A stretch of 64,000 nt of DNA. Origin: Actinomycetota bacterium. Lineage in GTDB: Bacteria; Actinomycetota; Actinomycetes; JACCUZ01. Every line of letters starts with the position of its first letter. Within the stretch, counting starts at the first letter, position 1. The notes under the pieces were generated by a model. It ran no database searches. It was not told where the DNA came from and saw only the letters and a list, made by a program, of their open reading frames with translations. Below, piece by piece: positions 1 to 8,100 of this stretch. The translations under genes were made by a program, and so were the position numbers. The stretch lies in contig JAVEDI010000037.1 in the NCBI GenBank assembly GCA_030841035.1, positions 314-64,313 on the forward strand, given 5' to 3'.

Positions 1-164
1 CCGGCTCATTCGGGAAGGGCGGTGGCCAACCCCCGTGGTTCGAGCCGGGCGGTTAATCCGTGTCCCCACTGCCCCACTCTTAGCTGCCATCGGTCTCGCG
101 ACTGTTGATGAGGAGCCGCAGGGCTGACGGCCGCTATGTCTGCATCGCGGTCCGATCCTCAGGC

Positions 165-2099
165 TCACTCCACGTCATCGTCGTCCGCCGGCGGGACGAT
201 CGCGATGACGAGCGCAGGCCCAGGGTGCCGCACAGTCGCGATGGTTGGCTGGTCATAAGTGAAGTCGATCTCGTCGTAATCACGCCGATAGGCGGGTGGG
301 AGCTCGTTGTCCGCGATGACGATTTGCAGCTGGCCCCGGTTCGCGTCCGCCTGTGTAACGAGGCGGCGGTACAAAGCGGCGGCGAGGTCCTCAGCGGTGT
401 TCAGCGCGAGCCGTGGGCTGTCGACGAGCAGGAACGCCGGGTAAGAGGTGTCGCGGCGTCGCAACGCGACGGTGAGAAGCGACGTCCAGTACGCGACCTG
501 CGTGGCCGTGATGATGCCGCCACCGGAGCTGACCTGCGCAAACGGGCGGCCATTCAGCAGCGGCAGGTAGTTCGTCGGATGGATCGACGCGTCCTCGACG
601 CCGGGGACACCGAGAGTGAGGACGGTATCGCGGAACTCGTCGGTCAGACTGGCGATGATCTCGCGTCGTCGCTCATCTAGAGTCCCCTGGGCGGCATCCA
701 ACTCGGCTCGAAGCCCATCGCGCTCGATGTGTAGCCGCGCCACCTGCGCGCCAATGTCGTCGGCGCGGTCCCACTGGCGTAGAACTGCCTCAAGCTGCTC
801 CTGCTCCGCGCGTGCCTGTGCGAGCCGCTCAGCGACGTCGTCGAACGCCTGTAGGCGCGGAGAGATCCGATCGGCGGTGCGACGGTCCAGGTTGGCGGAC
901 AGGTCGGCAATGAGCTGCTGCCGCGATGTGATGGCGTCCGATGTGTCCGCGCGCTGCGCCTCGATCGCTACGAGCTGGGCGTCGATCTCGGTCACCTGGT
1001 CCTCGAGCTGGCGCGTCTCGTATGTGTCGTTGGCCGTCGCCGCAACCGGGTCCGGCTGCAGACACAGCCGGCAGGCGCCGCCGGGGACGGCGCGGCCGCT
1101 GAGCGTCTGTGTGCATCGCGGGCAAACACTGAACTCGATGCTCGCCAGTCGCTCACCCGCCTCGCGCATCCGACGGATGCGGGCGATGTCGCCCTCAAGC
1201 CTGCGTTTTTCCTCGGCGTAGTCGGCCTGCTGGCGGACTAGCACAAAAGCGGTGTCGCGGGCGTGTGTCAGTCGTCGCTCGGTGTCGTTGAGTAAGTCGC
1301 GCAGCGCCTGGGTCTCGCGATCGGTGACGGGATCGGCGCCGGCACGCAGTCGTACGCGCTCCTCCTCGGCGTCACGTTGCCGCACCGCCGCGTCGGCGAC
1401 CGCCTCCTCGACGTGGCGGCGATCAGCGGTGCCGCTGTCGCGGAGAAATGTGAGAACCGTCTCATACTGCTGCTCAACGCGTGCAAGCTCACCGTTGAGG
1501 AAGTTGATACGCGATCGCATCTCGAGGATGGCTGGGTTCGTCAGGCCGAACAGCAGCTCAAATACCGCACGACGCTTCGGCTCCCGGTACATCTCCTGGC
1601 TGCTCGCGATGTCTTTGTTGATGCTGGCCTGCGGCACGTACATGAACGTGAACACATCGTTGAACGTGATGCGCGCGCCGGTGTTCGCACTGCTGCCGGT
1701 GCGGGCGGCGGCCCGCATATCGTCGGGCATCCCGAGAGCCGCGAGCAGCAGCGAGCTGAGGCTGGGCAACTGGTCGTCGACGCGGTGGTCGGATAACCGG
1801 TCGCCCGTGACGAGGTCATCGACGCGGACCGCGGCGCGGCGCTGCGGGTCGAGCTCGCGCGAAAGCCTGTATCGCTCCTGACCAACCGCGACATCGAGGA
1901 TGACAGTGACGACGTGCTGCAGCGCGACTGGGGCGAGAAGCCCTTCGCCTCCTACACCAAACTTGACGAGCTCCAGGAGCGTTGTCTTCCCAACGCCCGT
2001 TGGCCCTGCAAGCACGGTGAGGTCCGATGGCAATGTGTACCGAACCTCACCGTTACTCGTGTTGAGGGAGACAGCCTCGAGGCGGAACCGAGTCGTCAT
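165..2099 (-). CDS. SMC/Rad50-like ABC ATPase with coiled coil and zinc hook (LmuB/DdmC-like; candidate defence ATPase)
   Basis: Walker A LAGPTGVGKTTLLELV; Q-loop FMYVPQAS; about 350-aa coiled-coil insert containing CPRC...CRLC hook; ABC signature VSSGGGI; Walker B/D-loop FLLVDSP. Start taken at internal ATG (M45 of the 688-aa ORF), which overlaps the upstream gene's stop as ATGA. Confidence 0.65.
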   Translation of the reverse strand: MTTRFRLEAVSLNTSNGEVRYTLPSDLTVLAGPTGVGKTTLLELVKFGVGGEGLLAPVALQHVVTVILDVAVGQERYRLSRELDPQRRAAVRVDDLVTGDRLSDHRVDDQLPSLSSLLLAALGMPDDMRAAARTGSSANTGARITFNDVFTFMYVPQASINKDIASSQEMYREPKRRAVFELLFGLTNPAILEMRSRINFLNGELARVEQQYETVLTFLRDSGTADRRHVEEAVADAAVRQRDAEEERVRLRAGADPVTDRETQALRDLLNDTERRLTHARDTAFVLVRQQADYAEEKRRLEGDIARIRRMREAGERLASIEFSVCPRCTQTLSGRAVPGGACRLCLQPDPVAATANDTYETRQLEDQVTEIDAQLVAIEAQRADTSDAITSRQQLIADLSANLDRRTADRISPRLQAFDDVAERLAQARAEQEQLEAVLRQWDRADDIGAQVARLHIERDGLRAELDAAQGTLDERRREIIASLTDEFRDTVLTLGVPGVEDASIHPTNYLPLLNGRPFAQVSSGGGIITATQVAYWTSLLTVALRRRDTSYPAFLLVDSPRLALNTAEDLAAALYRRLVTQADANRGQLQIVIADNELPPAYRRDYDEIDFTYDQPTIATVRHPGPALVIAIVPPADDDDVE

Positions 2100-2668
2100 C
2101 GAATCACCTGCCGCTGCGGTCGATCCATGAGGTGAGGCAAGCGCCCATAGATGAGAGTCTTGAGGGCGCTGCCGGTGAGGCCTGCGGAAGCTTCGGCAAG
2201 CGCGGCAGACCTGTCGCCAACGGCCGCCCAATCATCGGTCGCCGCGAGCTCGGAGGCGAGGCGCCGGCCCGCCGCGGTCGGCGCGAGGGCCACGCTGCCG
2301 CGGCGACCGGGCGCGTACCGAAGCAACCCTCGGCCGACGAGCGCGCCGATGATCGAGTAGTAGCGGTCGTCCCACGGGCCGTACTTGTATCGGGTCATCG
2401 GCGCCTCGACATCGGTTGGCTCTTCCTGATCCGCAGGTGCGAGATGCAACCGAGGGTCGTCGCTGCGCAGCATGTCGAGGACGTCAGCGGCTAGAGCCGG
2501 GTACCGCAGGAGGAAGTCGAGCTTGGCGAGCTTGGTCAGCCCATCTAGCTTCCGCGCGTGCCCGGCCGACGAGGCTACGGCGTTCACGAGCAGGAGCACT
2601 CGGGCCTGGTGGTACGCGAGATCGTCGCGGACCAGGAGCAGTTCCTGCGGATCGATGGCTTCGGTCAC
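2096..2668 (-). CDS. small middle component of the tripartite operon (LmuC/DdmB kleisin-like or ABC-3C middle-component candidate)
   Basis: 190-aa ORF between effector candidate and ATPase. GTG start overlaps upstream stop (GTGA) and its stop overlaps downstream ATG (ATGA). No recognisable catalytic motif. Confidence 0.4.
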   Translation of the reverse strand: MTEAIDPQELLLVRDDLAYHQARVLLLVNAVASSAGHARKLDGLTKLAKLDFLLRYPALAADVLDMLRSDDPRLHLAPADQEEPTDVEAPMTRYKYGPWDDRYYSIIGALVGRGLLRYAPGRRGSVALAPTAAGRRLASELAATDDWAAVGDRSAALAEASAGLTGSALKTLIYGRLPHLMDRPQRQVIR

Positions 2669-4104
2669 GTTGGCGCCTCCTGCTCGGCACGGCGGCGGCC
2701 AAGCTCCGAGTCGACGTCGAACGCGTCGCTGAACCAGATTCTGCACCGGTTCGCGAGGTCGGACAGGCCGCCGAGGAGAAGGTCCGGATCCATGTCACCG
2801 GGCAACGACCCGTTCGGTAGCGCATGGGTCTCCGCCTCGAGTTCGCGCCACAAATCCGCTCCCCAGGGGGGAGTGCGCACACCAACGCGGGCCGTCGCGC
2901 GGTCGCTCGCACCGAGCAATGACCGCCGAAGCCGATCCTGCTGCGCTCGGGCTGCCGGGTCGGCGCTGACCCTGGCGCGCCAGTATCGCTGGTAGTCCAT
3001 CCGGAGTTCCTCCGCGCGCTCGATGGCGTTATCCGTGCACCCGCCGACCGACATCTTGACTGCGACCCGGGTCGTGCGCAGCAGCGGCCGCAGGGGCATG
3101 AACCCGAGCGGCCGCCGGGTGGCGACGGCGAGAGCCACGTCGATGTCGGCGAGCGTGACGACGCGCGATGCGAGGTAACGGTCGAGCTCAGCGGAACCTG
3201 AGGTCCCTCCGTCCGGCGCGCGTCTGACAACGTCCGGCAGCGCGCCCCTGGGGATGGGCGCTCCCGCGCGCATCCGCGAACGGAAAAGCGCTAAGACTGC
3301 CTCCCATACCGCGGCGGCCGGCACGTCGGACCGCCCGGCCGCTATGAGCACGGGCTCGACAAACATGCCGGGCGCGGCAAACCCGACATAGGCCCGCCCG
3401 ATGCGCCCTGACTCGATCGTCAACATTGCCAGGAACCGGAGGACCTCGTCGCGCTCCTCGGCTGTCGCGGGCGGCAAACTCTGACGACGCCTGCCGCGCC
3501 TGTCCACGGTGGCACCCGGGCCTGGACGTAGCAACGGCGCCAGATTCGCCACGACGTCCTCGTCCGCGACCACGTCGAGACCCGCACTCGTGTCCTGCGC
3601 CTCGCGCAACGCCACGACTAGGCGCATGAGGGCCGCCGGCGGCCCGGCGGCCAACCCTGCAGTCGTTACCAGTCGGCACGTTGGCCACTCTCCCAGCGCC
3701 CGCCAGCGGTCGCATAGGTGTCGAAGACCGCCATCACCGGCGAGTTGCGTCAGGGTGGTGAACACGCCGACAGCCGGGTCCCGGTGTTTCGCCGACACCA
3801 ACTCGGCGTTCACGCCTTGAACTCGGCACCAGTCCTCGTGGTGCTCGCACACCACCCGGCACCCACCATCGTCGACGAGCCTGCCGTCACTATCCAGCGC
3901 ATCGAGGTACAGGGCGAGCCCATCCGCAGCCGCCATCGCCGCCTGCCACTCGTAACGGTCCGCCGTTTCAGCTCCGGCGTCGTCCGGCGGTGGCGATCCC
4001 AGAACCGCCTCCACGGCCGAACTCGGCTGCTCTGATTGGTCCGCCGACACGCGCTGAAATATAGGGGAGCCGACGAGGTCTGACGGCGAACCGAGATCTC
4101 GCAC
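2665..4104 (-). CDS. hypothetical protein, first gene of tripartite operon (putative LmuA-like effector/sensor; domain not recognised)
   Basis: 479-aa ORF with good coding periodicity and no similarity I can name. Contains a CEHHEDWC segment. Positioned 5' of and coupled to the small and ATPase genes; about 290 bp noncoding separates it from the tRNA. Confidence 0.4.
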   Translation of the reverse strand: MRDLGSPSDLVGSPIFQRVSADQSEQPSSAVEAVLGSPPPDDAGAETADRYEWQAAMAAADGLALYLDALDSDGRLVDDGGCRVVCEHHEDWCRVQGVNAELVSAKHRDPAVGVFTTLTQLAGDGGLRHLCDRWRALGEWPTCRLVTTAGLAAGPPAALMRLVVALREAQDTSAGLDVVADEDVVANLAPLLRPGPGATVDRRGRRRQSLPPATAEERDEVLRFLAMLTIESGRIGRAYVGFAAPGMFVEPVLIAAGRSDVPAAAVWEAVLALFRSRMRAGAPIPRGALPDVVRRAPDGGTSGSAELDRYLASRVVTLADIDVALAVATRRPLGFMPLRPLLRTTRVAVKMSVGGCTDNAIERAEELRMDYQRYWRARVSADPAARAQQDRLRRSLLGASDRATARVGVRTPPWGADLWRELEAETHALPNGSLPGDMDPDLLLGGLSDLANRCRIWFSDAFDVDSELGRRRAEQEAPT

Positions 4105-4391
4105 GCGGCAATCGTCGCCGCCAGCGGGTCTCAGACGCGGCTAGAGGTCGTCGCGGACGACGTACATCGAATCGTGCCGCCCCACAGTGGCACGCCGCTC
4201 CGGGACACCCCCGTACATCGATGCCCACGGGCTGCGTGGTTGGATCTCGGGTCGCTAGCGGGGACATTCGTTGCCAACTCGTGCCGCGGCCTCACGCTTC
4301 GTGTCCGTTGGTTTTCACGGACGGATGACGGACCGGCAGTCAAAAAGCTCGGTCCGATTTGTCCGGACCGAGCCTCTGACCTGCACTTTCT

Positions 4392-4468
4392 TGGTAGCGG
4401 GGGCAGGATTTGAACCTGCGACCTCTGGGTTATGAGCCCAGCGAGCTACCGAGCTGCTCCACCCCGCG
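4392..4468 (-). tRNA. tRNA-fMet (initiator, anticodon CAT)
   Basis: Reverse complement reads cgcggggtggagcagctcggtagctcgctgggctcataacccagaggtcgcaggttcaaatcctgcccccgctacca: 77 nt, CAU anticodon, GGG/CCC anticodon stem, unpaired C1·U72, encoded CCA. Near-identical to E. coli tRNAfMet. Confidence 0.85.
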
Positions 4469-4520
4469 TCGTTGTGTCCCCGACTTTACGTCAGTGGCTC
4501 GCAGACCTGCAAACCGGCGG

Positions 4521-5153
4521 TCACCAGGGCGTGACGACCCGGTCGGCCAGCGGCCGGCCGGCCTCCACCAGTCGGGCGTTCGCCTCGTCGCTGCGCTCGA
4601 CCCACGCGCGCGCCGCCGCCGGCGTACGGCCGAAGTGCTGGTGGCGGGCCACCAGCGACGCGACCCTCGAGGTCTCCTGGGCGACCTCGAGGAACCAGAC
4701 CTCGTCCAGCAGCGGCCTGACCTCGGGCCAGTGCAGCAGGTAGTTGCCCTCGGTCACGACCAGCCGCACCTGCGGTGCCACCGCGATCTCGTCAGGCACG
4801 ACCGCCTCGAGCTCGCGATCGAAGCGCGGCGCGCGCACGACGACAGATGTGTCCTGGCGCAGCCGCCGCAGCATTGCGACGTAGCCGTCCCGGTCGAAGG
4901 TCTCGGGCGCGCCCTTGCGGTCGCCGAGCCCTAGCACCGCCAGCTCTGCGTCGGAGAGGTGAAAACCGTCCATGGGTACGACGACCGCGCCCTCCCCCAG
5001 GTCGCGAACGAGGGCGTCGGCCATCGTGGACTTCCCGGCGCCGGGCGAGCCCACCAGTCCCAGCAGCCGCCGGCCACCGCTGGACACGAGTGCCCGCGCG
5101 GCTGCCATCACCTCCCCCGGATCGAGCAGGGCGGGGCCCGCCGTACCGGACAC
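4521..5153 (-). CDS. P-loop nucleoside/nucleotide kinase family protein (uridine-kinase/PRK-like)
   Basis: GLVGSPGAGKST Walker A at N-terminus; about 210 aa. Confidence 0.55.
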   Translation of the reverse strand: MSGTAGPALLDPGEVMAAARALVSSGGRRLLGLVGSPGAGKSTMADALVRDLGEGAVVVPMDGFHLSDAELAVLGLGDRKGAPETFDRDGYVAMLRRLRQDTSVVVRAPRFDRELEAVVPDEIAVAPQVRLVVTEGNYLLHWPEVRPLLDEVWFLEVAQETSRVASLVARHQHFGRTPAAARAWVERSDEANARLVEAGRPLADRVVTPW

Positions 5154-5162
5154 CCGGAGCCC

Positions 5163-8100
5163 CTATCCCCCGGACGCCGAGGCCGACGGCGACGGGCTCG
5201 TGCCGGCGGACCGGGACGGGGACGGCGAGGGCGACGGCGAAGGGGGTGTCGCCTGCTGCTCCGCGGCCAGCGCCCTGGTGATCGCATCCTGCAGCTGCTG
5301 CTGCGCCGTGCCGTACGCCGCGAAGTCGCCCTTCTGCAAGGCCGCACGGGAGTCACGCAGCGCCTGCTGCGCATCAGCCAACGCCGCGGCCAGTGTCGGG
5401 TTGGTGGCCGTGCCGCCACCGCCGCCCGTGCCTGGGCTGCCGCCCCCGGTGCTGCCACCCCCGGTGGTGCCGCCGCCACCGGCGGGCACGCCACCGGACT
5501 CGCCGGCGAAGACGGCGTCCAGTGCCGCCTGCAGCGTGTCCTCGAACGCGACCCGGTCACCGAAGGAGACGAGGACCTTGCGCAGCAACGGGAAGGACGT
5601 GGTCGCCTCGGCCTGGACGTAGACCGGCTCGACGTAGAGCAACCCGCCGCCGACCGGCAGGGTCAGCAGGTTGCCGTTCTTCACCGTGGTGCCGCGCCGC
5701 AGGATGTTGAGCTGCTCGGCGACCACGTCGTCGGAGATGAACTGGTTCTGCACCTGGGACGGCCCGTTGATCTGCACGGACCGGGGCAGCTGCAGCACCC
5801 GGAACTTGCCGTAGTCGGGACCGGGGTCGGAGCTGACCGCGACGAACGCCGCGAGGTTGTTGCGGTCACCGGTAGGCACGTACGTCGATGTCAGCGAGAA
5901 CGTCGGCGCGCTCTGCCCTGGCATGCGCAGCGTCAGGAAGTACGGCGGCTGCAGGCCTGTGGTCTCCCGGGTCGGGTCCACGGGGACCCGCCAGAAGTCG
6001 CTGCCGCTGTAGAAGTCGCGCGGATTGCTCACGTGGTAGTGCGCGAGCAGCTCACGCTGCACCTTGAACAGGTCCTCGGGGTAGCGGAAGTGCGACATGA
6101 GCTCCGCGCCGATCGACGAGCGCGGCTTGACCGTGTTGGGGTAGGCGTTCTCCCATGTCTTGAGGACGGGGTCCTTCGTGTCCCACTCATAGAGAGTGAC
6201 CTTGCCGGTGTAGGCGTCGACCGTCGCTTTGACCGAGTTACGGATGTAGTTGACCCGTTGCACCGGCGCGACCAGCGCCGTCGACGCGTTGGACTGCGAG
6301 TCGGTGGTGACGACATCGAGGGACTTGCGCGTGGAGTAGGGGTAGCCGTTGCTCGTCGTGTAGCCATCGACGATCCACACGATCTTCTTGCCCACCACCG
6401 CCGGGTAGGGGTCGCCGTCGAGGCTCAGCCAGGGCGCGACCTTCTCCACCCGGGTCTTGGGGTGGCGGTCGTAGAGGATCCGCGAGGCGGGGTTGACCTG
6501 GTTGGACAGCAGGATGTTCGACTCCTGGTACTTGGAGGCGAAGATCAGCTTGCGCCACAACGAGTTGACGGCGACGCCGCCGCCTCCCTTGTAGGTGTTG
6601 TTGCGCTGGCCACCGCTGCCCGTGTCGGTCGGGAAGTCCAGCTCCTGCGCCTGCGCGCCCGGAGGCGCACCCACGATGCTGTACGTCGGCGACTCCTCGC
6701 CGAAGTAGATGCGCGGCTGGAAGCCGTTGATCTCGCCCTGCGGCGGGATGTTCGACGAGACGAAGGACGGCCGGCCGCCGTTGGTCGTGTTGCCCAGTGC
6801 CGCGACGAAGCCGAAGCCGTGCGTGTAGACGGTGTGGTCGTTGATCCAGTTGCGCTGGGCGTCGGGCAGGCCGGTCAGGTCCAGCTCGCGCGCCGCCACG
6901 ACGACGTCCCGCTTCTTGCCTTCGATCGTGTAGCGGTCGACGTCGAGGTCGTCCTGGAAGTCGTAGTAGGCCCTGATCTGCTGAAGGTTCTTGTACGTCG
7001 GGCTCATGATCGCCGGGTCGAGCAGCCGGATGCTGGCCGTCGTGTCGGAGTCGGAGCGCAGCTGACCTGCCGTCGCCTTGGTCGTCGCCGAATAGCTGCG
7101 TACGTCGACGTCGTCGATGCCGTAGGCCGCGCGCGTGGCGTCGATGTTCTTGCGGATGTACGGCGCTTCCTTGGTGCGCTCCGAAGGCTTGACCTCGAAG
7201 CGCTGCACGATCGCGGGATAGATGCCGCCGATCAGCAGCGCGGACAGGACGAGGCCGCCGACGCCGACAGCGGGCAGCAGCCACGTGCGACGGACGATGT
7301 TGGCGAAGAAAAGTGCCGCGCAGATCAGCGAGATGATCGCGAGGATCGTGCGCCCCAGCAGCACGGCGTTGACGTCGGTGTAGGCCAGCCCGCTGAAGTC
7401 GGCCCGGCCGATCCGGCTCTCCTTCACCGCGAGGCCGTAGCGATCCAGCCAGTAGGCCACGGCCTTGAGCAGCACGAAGACCCCGAGCAGCACGGACAGG
7501 TGCACCCGCGCGGCGGGCGTGGCCCGCTCACCGAGCAGCGGCTGCAGCCGCAGGCCGCCGTACAGGTAGTGGGTCACCGCCGCTGCGATCAAGGCGATCA
7601 CGACCGCCGCGAACAGGAAGCTGAGCATGAAGCGGTACCACGGCAGGTCGAAGGTGAAGAACGAGATGTCCTTGCCGAACTGCGGGTCCTTCACACCGAA
7701 GGACGCGCCGTGCCGCCACTCGAGGTAGGTGCGCCACTGGCCCGAGGCCGACGATCCCGCGATCAGGCCGAGCAGGACGGCGATGGCGATGACCACCAGG
7801 CGCTTGTAGGGCTCCAGCGCGGTGCGGTAGCGGTCGAGCTCGGCCTGCCCCGGGATCAGGGCCTGATAGGTCGGGCGGTTGCGATAGGCGATCACGAAGT
7901 TTGCGGACACGGCGACCGCGAAGACGATGCCGAACAGGAAGAACAGCAACGACTTGGCCCGCAGCGTCCGGGTGAAGACGCTGGCGTAGTCGACCGACTG
8001 GTACCACAGCAGGTCGGTGTAGAAGCCGGTGAAGATGCTGAAGCCGATGAGCAGCGCGCCGAGGATCAGCAGTGTGGGAAGCAGCGCCCGCCCGCGACGC

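What the first reader, a model, noticed from the sequence alone, without database searches (positions are those of the whole stretch)
2665..4104. Putative effector/sensor (gene A) has no recognisable domain
In Lamassu and ABC-3C systems the non-ATPase large subunit carries the toxic or sensing module (Cap4 nuclease, Mrr, Sir2, protease, etc.). Here the 479-aa protein has clean coding statistics, but I cannot match any motif to these modules. The only distinctive segment is a Cys/His-rich CEHHEDWC stretch near the N-terminus. It could be a new effector module.
Basis: inference. Interest (0 to 1): 0.6.

Follow-up and report, generated by a model that had tools for sequence, protein, structure and literature searches.

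The report
Divergent Cap4-type Lamassu nuclease effector
The "domain-less" protein is a diverged copy of the known Cap4-type DNA-cutting effector (LmuA) of the Lamassu anti-phage system, and its CEHHEDWC stretch is part of the nuclease active site, so it is an ordinary new member of a known family, not a new effector.

The parts
The probable real start is GTG 4014 (449 aa).
   Evidence: ORF listing. Identical public protein of 449 aa. PADLOC LmuA PDLC03848, E 1.9e-12, residues 40-463. GC3 of the extension 0.67 against 0.80 for the core.
3655..3987 (-). N-terminal Cap4-type (DUF4297) PD-(D/E)xK nuclease domain, residues about 40-150
3826..3849 (-). CEHHEDWC (residues 86-93): acidic half of the nuclease active site (E87, E90, D91)
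   Evidence: E87 and D91 are invariant in 50 close and 41 distant homologues; C93 is present in 3 of 50. D91 aligns with HamA chain D72, which is native D45, a catalytic residue.
3787..3795 (-). S104-A-K106: the (Q/E)-x-K half of the active site, with Ser in the Q/E position
   Evidence: S104 and K106 are invariant. They align with HamA Q58 and K60 at identical spacing, D-13-x-x-K. The equivalent Lys is K57, K68 and K59 in the solved LmuA proteins.
3463..3654 (-). Helical linker, residues 151-214. It is about 40-50 residues longer than in the ~400-aa relatives and is partly low-confidence.
   Evidence: Alignment A2 shows the insertion relative to the short group. pLDDT dips at residues 197-203.
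2665..3462 (-). All-helical LmuA C-terminal domain (ABC-3C CTD), residues 215-479, plus the stop codon
2096..2668 (-). lmuC (190 aa). Its GTG start overlaps the lmuA stop (GTGA) and AGGAGG lies upstream.
   Evidence: PADLOC LmuC PDLC03872, E 8.3e-11. Called gene in the public contig. Junction sequence. Present downstream in 65 of 66 loci at 60-74% identity.
165..2099 (-). lmuB (644 aa), an SMC/Rad50-like ABC ATPase. It has Walker A GPTGVGKT, two CxxC motifs (zinc hook), signature SSGGG and Walker B FLLVDS. Its ATG overlaps the lmuC stop (ATGA).
   Evidence: PADLOC LmuB PDLC03862, E 1.3e-75. Motifs. Junction. Present downstream in 65 of 66 loci.
4392..4468 (-). tRNA-Met flanking the islet on the upstream side
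   Evidence: ARAGORN. GC is 0.64-0.71 in 1-4500 against 0.72-0.78 beyond.

Best explanation
Gene A is LmuA, the nuclease effector of a three-gene 'short', type II Lamassu system (lmuA-lmuC-lmuB) on a small islet next to a tRNA-Met gene in an actinobacterium. It has two domains. The N-terminal domain is a diverged Cap4/DUF4297 restriction-endonuclease-fold nuclease with active site E87, (E90) D91 ... S104-x-K106. The C-terminal domain is the helical LmuA domain. By homology with the solved Vibrio and Salmonella systems, one LmuA monomer is held inactive through its C-terminal domain by an LmuB dimer plus LmuC. When LmuB senses DNA ends or aberrant DNA structures made during phage or plasmid replication, LmuA is released. 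It tetramerises through its C-terminal domain, which pairs two nuclease domains into one DNA-cleaving site, and the resulting DNA cleavage aborts the infection. Shown here: domain identities, active-site residue equivalence and conservation, and the conserved operon. Inferred by homology: sequestration, the trigger, tetramerisation and the DNA substrate.
Against: The window protein itself has no Pfam or NCBIfam hit, and no HMMER hit to the solved LmuA sequences even with profiles. Identity to solved LmuA is only 9-12%, and global TM-scores are low at 0.2-0.3, most simply because the relative orientation of the two domains differs. Ser occupies the position where Cap4 and HamA have Gln, so catalytic competence is inferred, not shown. 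The linker is about 40-50 residues longer than in related ~400-aa proteins. LmuB here has two CxxC motifs, whereas the solved Vibrio LmuB has no zinc hook, so complex geometry may differ. I could not inspect model coordinates to confirm that E87, D91, S104 and K106 cluster in space. No experiment exists for this clade.
Confidence: 0.82

Rival explanations
1. The nuclease fold is retained but catalytically dead because of the Q/E-to-S change. LmuA would then act as a DNA-binding sensor or adaptor, with toxicity coming from another activity or partner.
For: S104 replaces the Gln of HamA and Cap4 at the metal-site position. [quoted passage not shown]
Against: E87, D91, S104 and K106 are all invariant across 41 sequences down to 25% identity, which fits selection on a working active site. 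The distant members that pass PF14130 carry the same S-x-K. From general knowledge, not tested here, active restriction enzymes of the Cfr10I/NgoMIV type use S-x-K with a Glu recruited from elsewhere; here the invariant E87 and the near-invariant E90 could play that part. No other candidate effector gene is in the operon.
Confidence: 0.08
2. One reading: a new effector module whose CEHHEDWC stretch is a Cys/His metal-binding or redox motif.
For: No direct Pfam or NCBIfam hit. C86 is invariant and H89 is conserved in 45 of 50 close homologues.
Against: C93 is present in only 3 of 50 and H88 is variable, so there is no conserved Cys/His ligand set. The segment aligns residue for residue with the E...D acidic motif of the HamA Cap4 domain. 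The fold and both domains are assigned to known LmuA.
Confidence: 0.02
3. It is a Cap4-like nuclease that works outside Lamassu, for example as a stand-alone or CBASS- or Avs-type effector, and only happens to lie next to an SMC-like ATPase.
For: The same nuclease-plus-linker module is found fused to NB-ARC/TPR STAND NTPases and to a VMAP-C domain. Truncated copies lacking LmuC and LmuB exist.
Against: 65 of 66 full-length homologues are followed directly by LmuC and LmuB. The genes overlap by 4 nt. The C-terminal domain matches only the LmuA CTD that binds LmuB and LmuC. There is no SAVED or CD-NTase in the neighbourhood.
Confidence: 0.03

Closest known systems
Type II 'short' Lamassu LmuA with Cap4 nuclease: V. 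cholerae DdmA/LmuA (PDB 9NXX, 9NY1, 9NY5, 9NYG, 9UXL) and Salmonella enterica LmuA (9HQX, 9HR5, 9HQU)
   Same: Two-domain architecture of a Cap4-type nuclease NTD plus a helical CTD, with each domain matched separately. lmuA-lmuC-lmuB gene order. Catalytic Lys at a comparable position (K57, K68, and K106 here, which is K76 from the likely start). LmuB has Walker B hhhhD-S, as in short Lamassu.
   Different: 9-12% identity, with no HMMER-detectable similarity to the solved chains. Ser instead of Gln/Glu in the (Q/E)xK motif. The linker is about 40-50 residues longer than in related ~400-aa proteins. LmuB carries two CxxC motifs, whereas Vibrio LmuB has no zinc hook. Restricted to Actinomycetota.
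Cap4 (CD-NTase-associated protein 4, PF14130/DUF4297) of CBASS: PDB 7YIB, 6VM6
   Different: Cap4 has a SAVED ligand-sensing domain and is activated by cyclic oligonucleotides. This protein has the LmuA CTD, and no CD-NTase is nearby.
HamA with a fused Cap4 domain (type I-B Hachiman, PDB 8ZUE)
   Same: The only solved protein reached by sequence profile (E 7.7e-5). Its E...DD...QxK motif aligns with E87...E90-D91...S104-x-K106, and its D45 and K60 are experimentally catalytic.
   Different: HamA pairs with the helicase HamB and has a DUF1837 C-terminal domain. It has Gln where this family has Ser.
Avs3 (antiviral STAND, PDB 8DGC) N-terminal Cap4-like nuclease
   Different: The window protein has no NTPase or TPR part. 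It is a separate subunit controlled by LmuB and LmuC.

Membership tests
Lamassu LmuA (type II, short) | Encoded in an operon with an SMC/Rad50-like LmuB ATPase and a small LmuC | tested here: met
   PADLOC gives LmuB E 1.3e-75 and LmuC E 8.3e-11. The genes overlap by 4 nt. The order A-C-B is conserved in 65 of 66 loci.
Lamassu LmuA (type II, short) | C-terminal LmuA/ABC-3C domain, the one that binds LmuB and LmuC and mediates tetramerisation | tested here: met
Lamassu LmuA (type II, short) | Partner LmuB has Walker A, an ABC signature, a short-type Walker B (hhhhD[Q/S/T/E]) and a length near 600 aa | tested here: met
   GPTGVGKT at residue 32, SSGGG at 525, FLLVDS at 556, 644 aa, two CxxC motifs. 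Criteria are from Haudiquet et al..
Lamassu LmuA (type II, short) | Confers phage or plasmid defence; the effector is sequestered and released on DNA-end sensing | not testable with these tools
   Needs expression, plaque and biochemical assays. Known only for the Vibrio, Salmonella, Bacillus and E. coli systems.
Cap4 nuclease domain (Pfam PF14130 / DUF4297) | Sequence match to the family model above the gathering score | tested here: inconclusive
   The window protein has no hit at E<=1. 18 of 50 close homologues give sub-threshold hits, best E 0.0038. 8 of 10 distant members of the same HMMER family (E 1e-31 to 1e-42 against the A1 profile) pass the 26.2-bit cut-off. Membership is therefore transitive, not direct.
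Cap4 nuclease domain (Pfam PF14130 / DUF4297) | Restriction-endonuclease (PD-(D/E)xK) fold resembling solved Cap4-type domains | tested here: met
Cap4 nuclease domain (Pfam PF14130 / DUF4297) | Catalytic D ... (Q/E)-x-K residues present | tested here: inconclusive
   D91 and K106 are present, invariant and aligned with HamA D45 and K60. The middle residue is an invariant Ser (S104) instead of Gln/Glu. The effect on catalysis is unknown.
CBASS Cap4 effector | SAVED/CARF sensor domain and an associated CD-NTase | tested here: not met

The most novel reading that the evidence does not exclude
This actinobacterial clade could be a functionally distinct Cap4-type LmuA. An invariant S-x-K active site (with E87/E90 supplying the missing carboxylate), a linker about 40-50 residues longer, and a zinc-hook-bearing LmuB could change metal use, cleavage chemistry or the release and oligomerisation switch relative to the solved gammaproteobacterial systems. 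The same nuclease-plus-linker cassette is exchanged with Avs-like STAND NTPases and VMAP-C proteins, which would make it a portable effector unit larger than the Cap4 domain alone.
Probability: 0.12. Interest if true: 0.35.

Novelty: new member of a known kind. Interest (0 to 1): 0.15.

Why it matters
The main value is a correction. A gene flagged as a possible new defence effector is the standard Cap4-type Lamassu nuclease, diverged beyond the reach of Pfam and NCBIfam. The practical point is that most members of this actinobacterial clade are annotated 'hypothetical protein' and could be named LmuA (Cap4-type). The D91 and K106 equivalences give ready-made catalytic-dead mutants for anyone studying Lamassu in Streptomyces and related genera. 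The invariant Ser at the Q/E position and the sharing of the module with STAND NTPases are minor points for people who study PD-(D/E)xK variation and effector modularity.

Tried and rejected
These led nowhere. (1) Direct Pfam and NCBIfam scans of the three proteins found nothing for LmuA or LmuC and only generic P-loop/SMC hits for LmuB. (2) phmmer and hmmsearch against PDB sequences with the protein and with profiles A1, A2 and A3 never reached the solved LmuA chains; only HamA was reached. LmuB and LmuC also gave no PDB sequence hits. (3) I looked for att-like direct repeats of the tRNA 3' end flanking the islet in the longer public contig and found only short chance-level repeats. (4) A promoter and terminator scan of 1-4600 gave nothing above shuffle expectation. 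(5) I could not retrieve the sequences of the solved LmuA proteins, so a residue-by-residue map onto Vibrio K57 or Salmonella K68 was not possible; the map goes through HamA instead. (6) A Cys/His metal cluster is rejected on conservation grounds. (7) PADLOC output does not name LmuA effector subtypes, so I could not tell which subtype PDLC03848 represents; I only know that PF14130-positive relatives hit it over its full length.

Full report
OBSERVATION. CEHHEDWC is at residues 86-93, nt 3826-3849. The start is probably 30 codons further in, at GTG 4014. Four things point that way. The identical public protein is annotated as 449 aa. Homologues begin around residues 25-31. Residues 1-23 are modelled with pLDDT below 50. 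GC3 of the 30-codon extension is 0.67, against 0.80 for the rest of the gene. 'No recognisable domain' is true for Pfam and NCBIfam (0 families at E<=1) and for phmmer against PDB sequences.

CONTEXT. Two more minus-strand genes follow, each overlapping the previous one by 4 nt (GTGA and ATGA). They encode a 190-aa protein (2096-2668) and a 644-aa P-loop protein (165-2099). PADLOC assigns the three as LmuA (PDLC03848, E 1.9e-12, residues 40-463 on model positions 5-367 of 373), LmuC (E 8.3e-11) and LmuB (E 1.3e-75). LmuB has Walker A GPTGVGKT, two CxxC motifs, an SSGGG signature and Walker B FLLVDS. Haudiquet et al. give hhhhD[Q/S/T/E] and a length near 600 aa as the marks of 'short' Lamassu. 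The trio lies just downstream of a tRNA-Met gene (4392-4468), in a stretch of lower GC (0.64-0.71 against 0.72-0.78). In the longer public contig an IS3-type transposase and then argS follow lmuB. I found no att-like repeat.

FAMILY. The protein has 332 word-index homologues and 432 representatives at 50% identity in the exhaustive search. All 78 loci recovered from genomes are Actinomycetota. In 65 of 66 loci with a near-full-length homologue and enough downstream DNA, LmuC (60-74% identity) and LmuB (45-63%) follow immediately in the same order.

SEQUENCE BRIDGE AND ACTIVE SITE. 18 of 50 close homologues give sub-threshold PF14130 (Cap4_nuclease) hits. Distant ~400-aa members of the same HMMER family (E 1e-31 to 1e-42 against the A1 profile) pass Pfam's gathering score for PF14130 in 8 of 10 cases. 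They also hit the PADLOC 'LmuA - DUF4297 domain' models, as well as PDLC03848 over its full length. A profile that includes them (A2) hits the Cap4 domain of HamA (8ZUE_A) at E 7.7e-5. The alignment puts CE-x-x-ED...LVS-x-K on CEVTDD...FVQVK, that is E87~E68, D91~D72, S104~Q85 and K106~K87 in chain numbering. The chain has 27 extra N-terminal residues (565 against 538), so these are native D45, Q58 and K60. The authors name exactly these as active-site residues, and D45A or K60A abolishes nuclease activity (PMC11914072). The D-13-x-x-K spacing is identical. E87, D91, S104 and K106 are invariant in both the close set (50) and the extended set (41, down to 25% identity). C86 is nearly invariant, H89 is common, H88 is variable, and C93 is present in only 3 of 50. 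CEHHEDWC is therefore the acidic half of a nuclease active site, not a Cys/His cluster. The only departure from the canonical motif is Ser at the Q/E position. From general knowledge, not tested here, S-x-K occurs in active Cfr10I/NgoMIV-type enzymes, where a Glu is recruited from elsewhere.

MECHANISM (by homology, not shown here). In the solved systems one LmuA is held by its CTD in an LmuA1-LmuB2-LmuC1 complex. Binding of DNA ends and ATP-driven head engagement release it. The released LmuA forms a CTD-mediated tetramer in which two nuclease domains make one cleavage site that leaves a 1-nt 3' overhang. Mutating the catalytic Lys (Vibrio K57, Salmonella K68, Bacillus K59) abolishes toxicity and defence. 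I expect the same here, with K106 as the equivalent Lys.

DIFFERENCES FROM THE SOLVED SYSTEMS. Identity to solved LmuA is 9-12%. The middle catalytic residue is Ser, not Gln/Glu. The linker is about 40-50 residues longer than in the ~400-aa relatives. LmuB carries two CxxC motifs, while Vibrio LmuB has none. None of these takes the protein outside the known kind.

VERDICT. The suggestion of a new module is not supported. This is a diverged, uncharacterised actinobacterial clade of Cap4-type LmuA: a new member of a known kind, of low interest (0.15).

Noticed in passing
P0262, P0152, P0188, P0159; loci L068, L069, L076 (match at 5001-5909): The first ~300 residues of this LmuA family (nuclease plus linker, without the LmuA CTD) also occur fused to NB-ARC/AAA_16 + TPR STAND NTPases (992-1434 aa, Avs-like) and to a VMAP-C domain. 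Genomic loci that have only that part of LmuA lack LmuC and LmuB downstream. In L068 the matching region lies in a 567-aa ORF followed by a 1098-aa ORF.
   Followed up: partly
loci L006-L082; window 2096-2668: LmuC is the best-conserved of the three proteins across genomes (60-74% identity, against 45-63% for LmuB and 35-54% for LmuA), although it has no Pfam, NCBIfam or PDB sequence match.
   Followed up: no
window 1-4500; L001 5547-5623 and 10232-11514: The Lamassu trio forms a lower-GC islet (0.64-0.71 against 0.72-0.78) between a tRNA-Met gene and, in the longer public contig beyond the window edge, an IS3-family transposase pair (HTH_Tnp_1 + rve), then argS. No flanking direct repeat was found.
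   Followed up: partly
L004 7955-9911 (Streptomyces curacoi); L031, L066, L043: In some genomes the LmuB homologue is split or only partly matched; in S. curacoi, for example, it is called as 347 + 220 aa. This suggests frameshifted or decaying copies, although the short L043 match may simply reflect the end of the held sequence.
   Followed up: no
window 4521-5153 (-): A 210-aa ORF with a P-loop (GSPGAGKST) lies between the tRNA-Met and the UPF0182 gene. It has no precomputed Pfam family in the public contig. It is probably a small nucleoside or sugar kinase-like housekeeping gene.
   Followed up: no
window 165-2231 and 2096-2746 (-): The mechanical ORF listing over-extends lmuB (688 against 644 aa) and lmuC (216 against 190 aa) at their 5' ends. 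The shorter starts give 4-nt overlaps (ATGA, GTGA) and match the public gene calls.
   Followed up: yes
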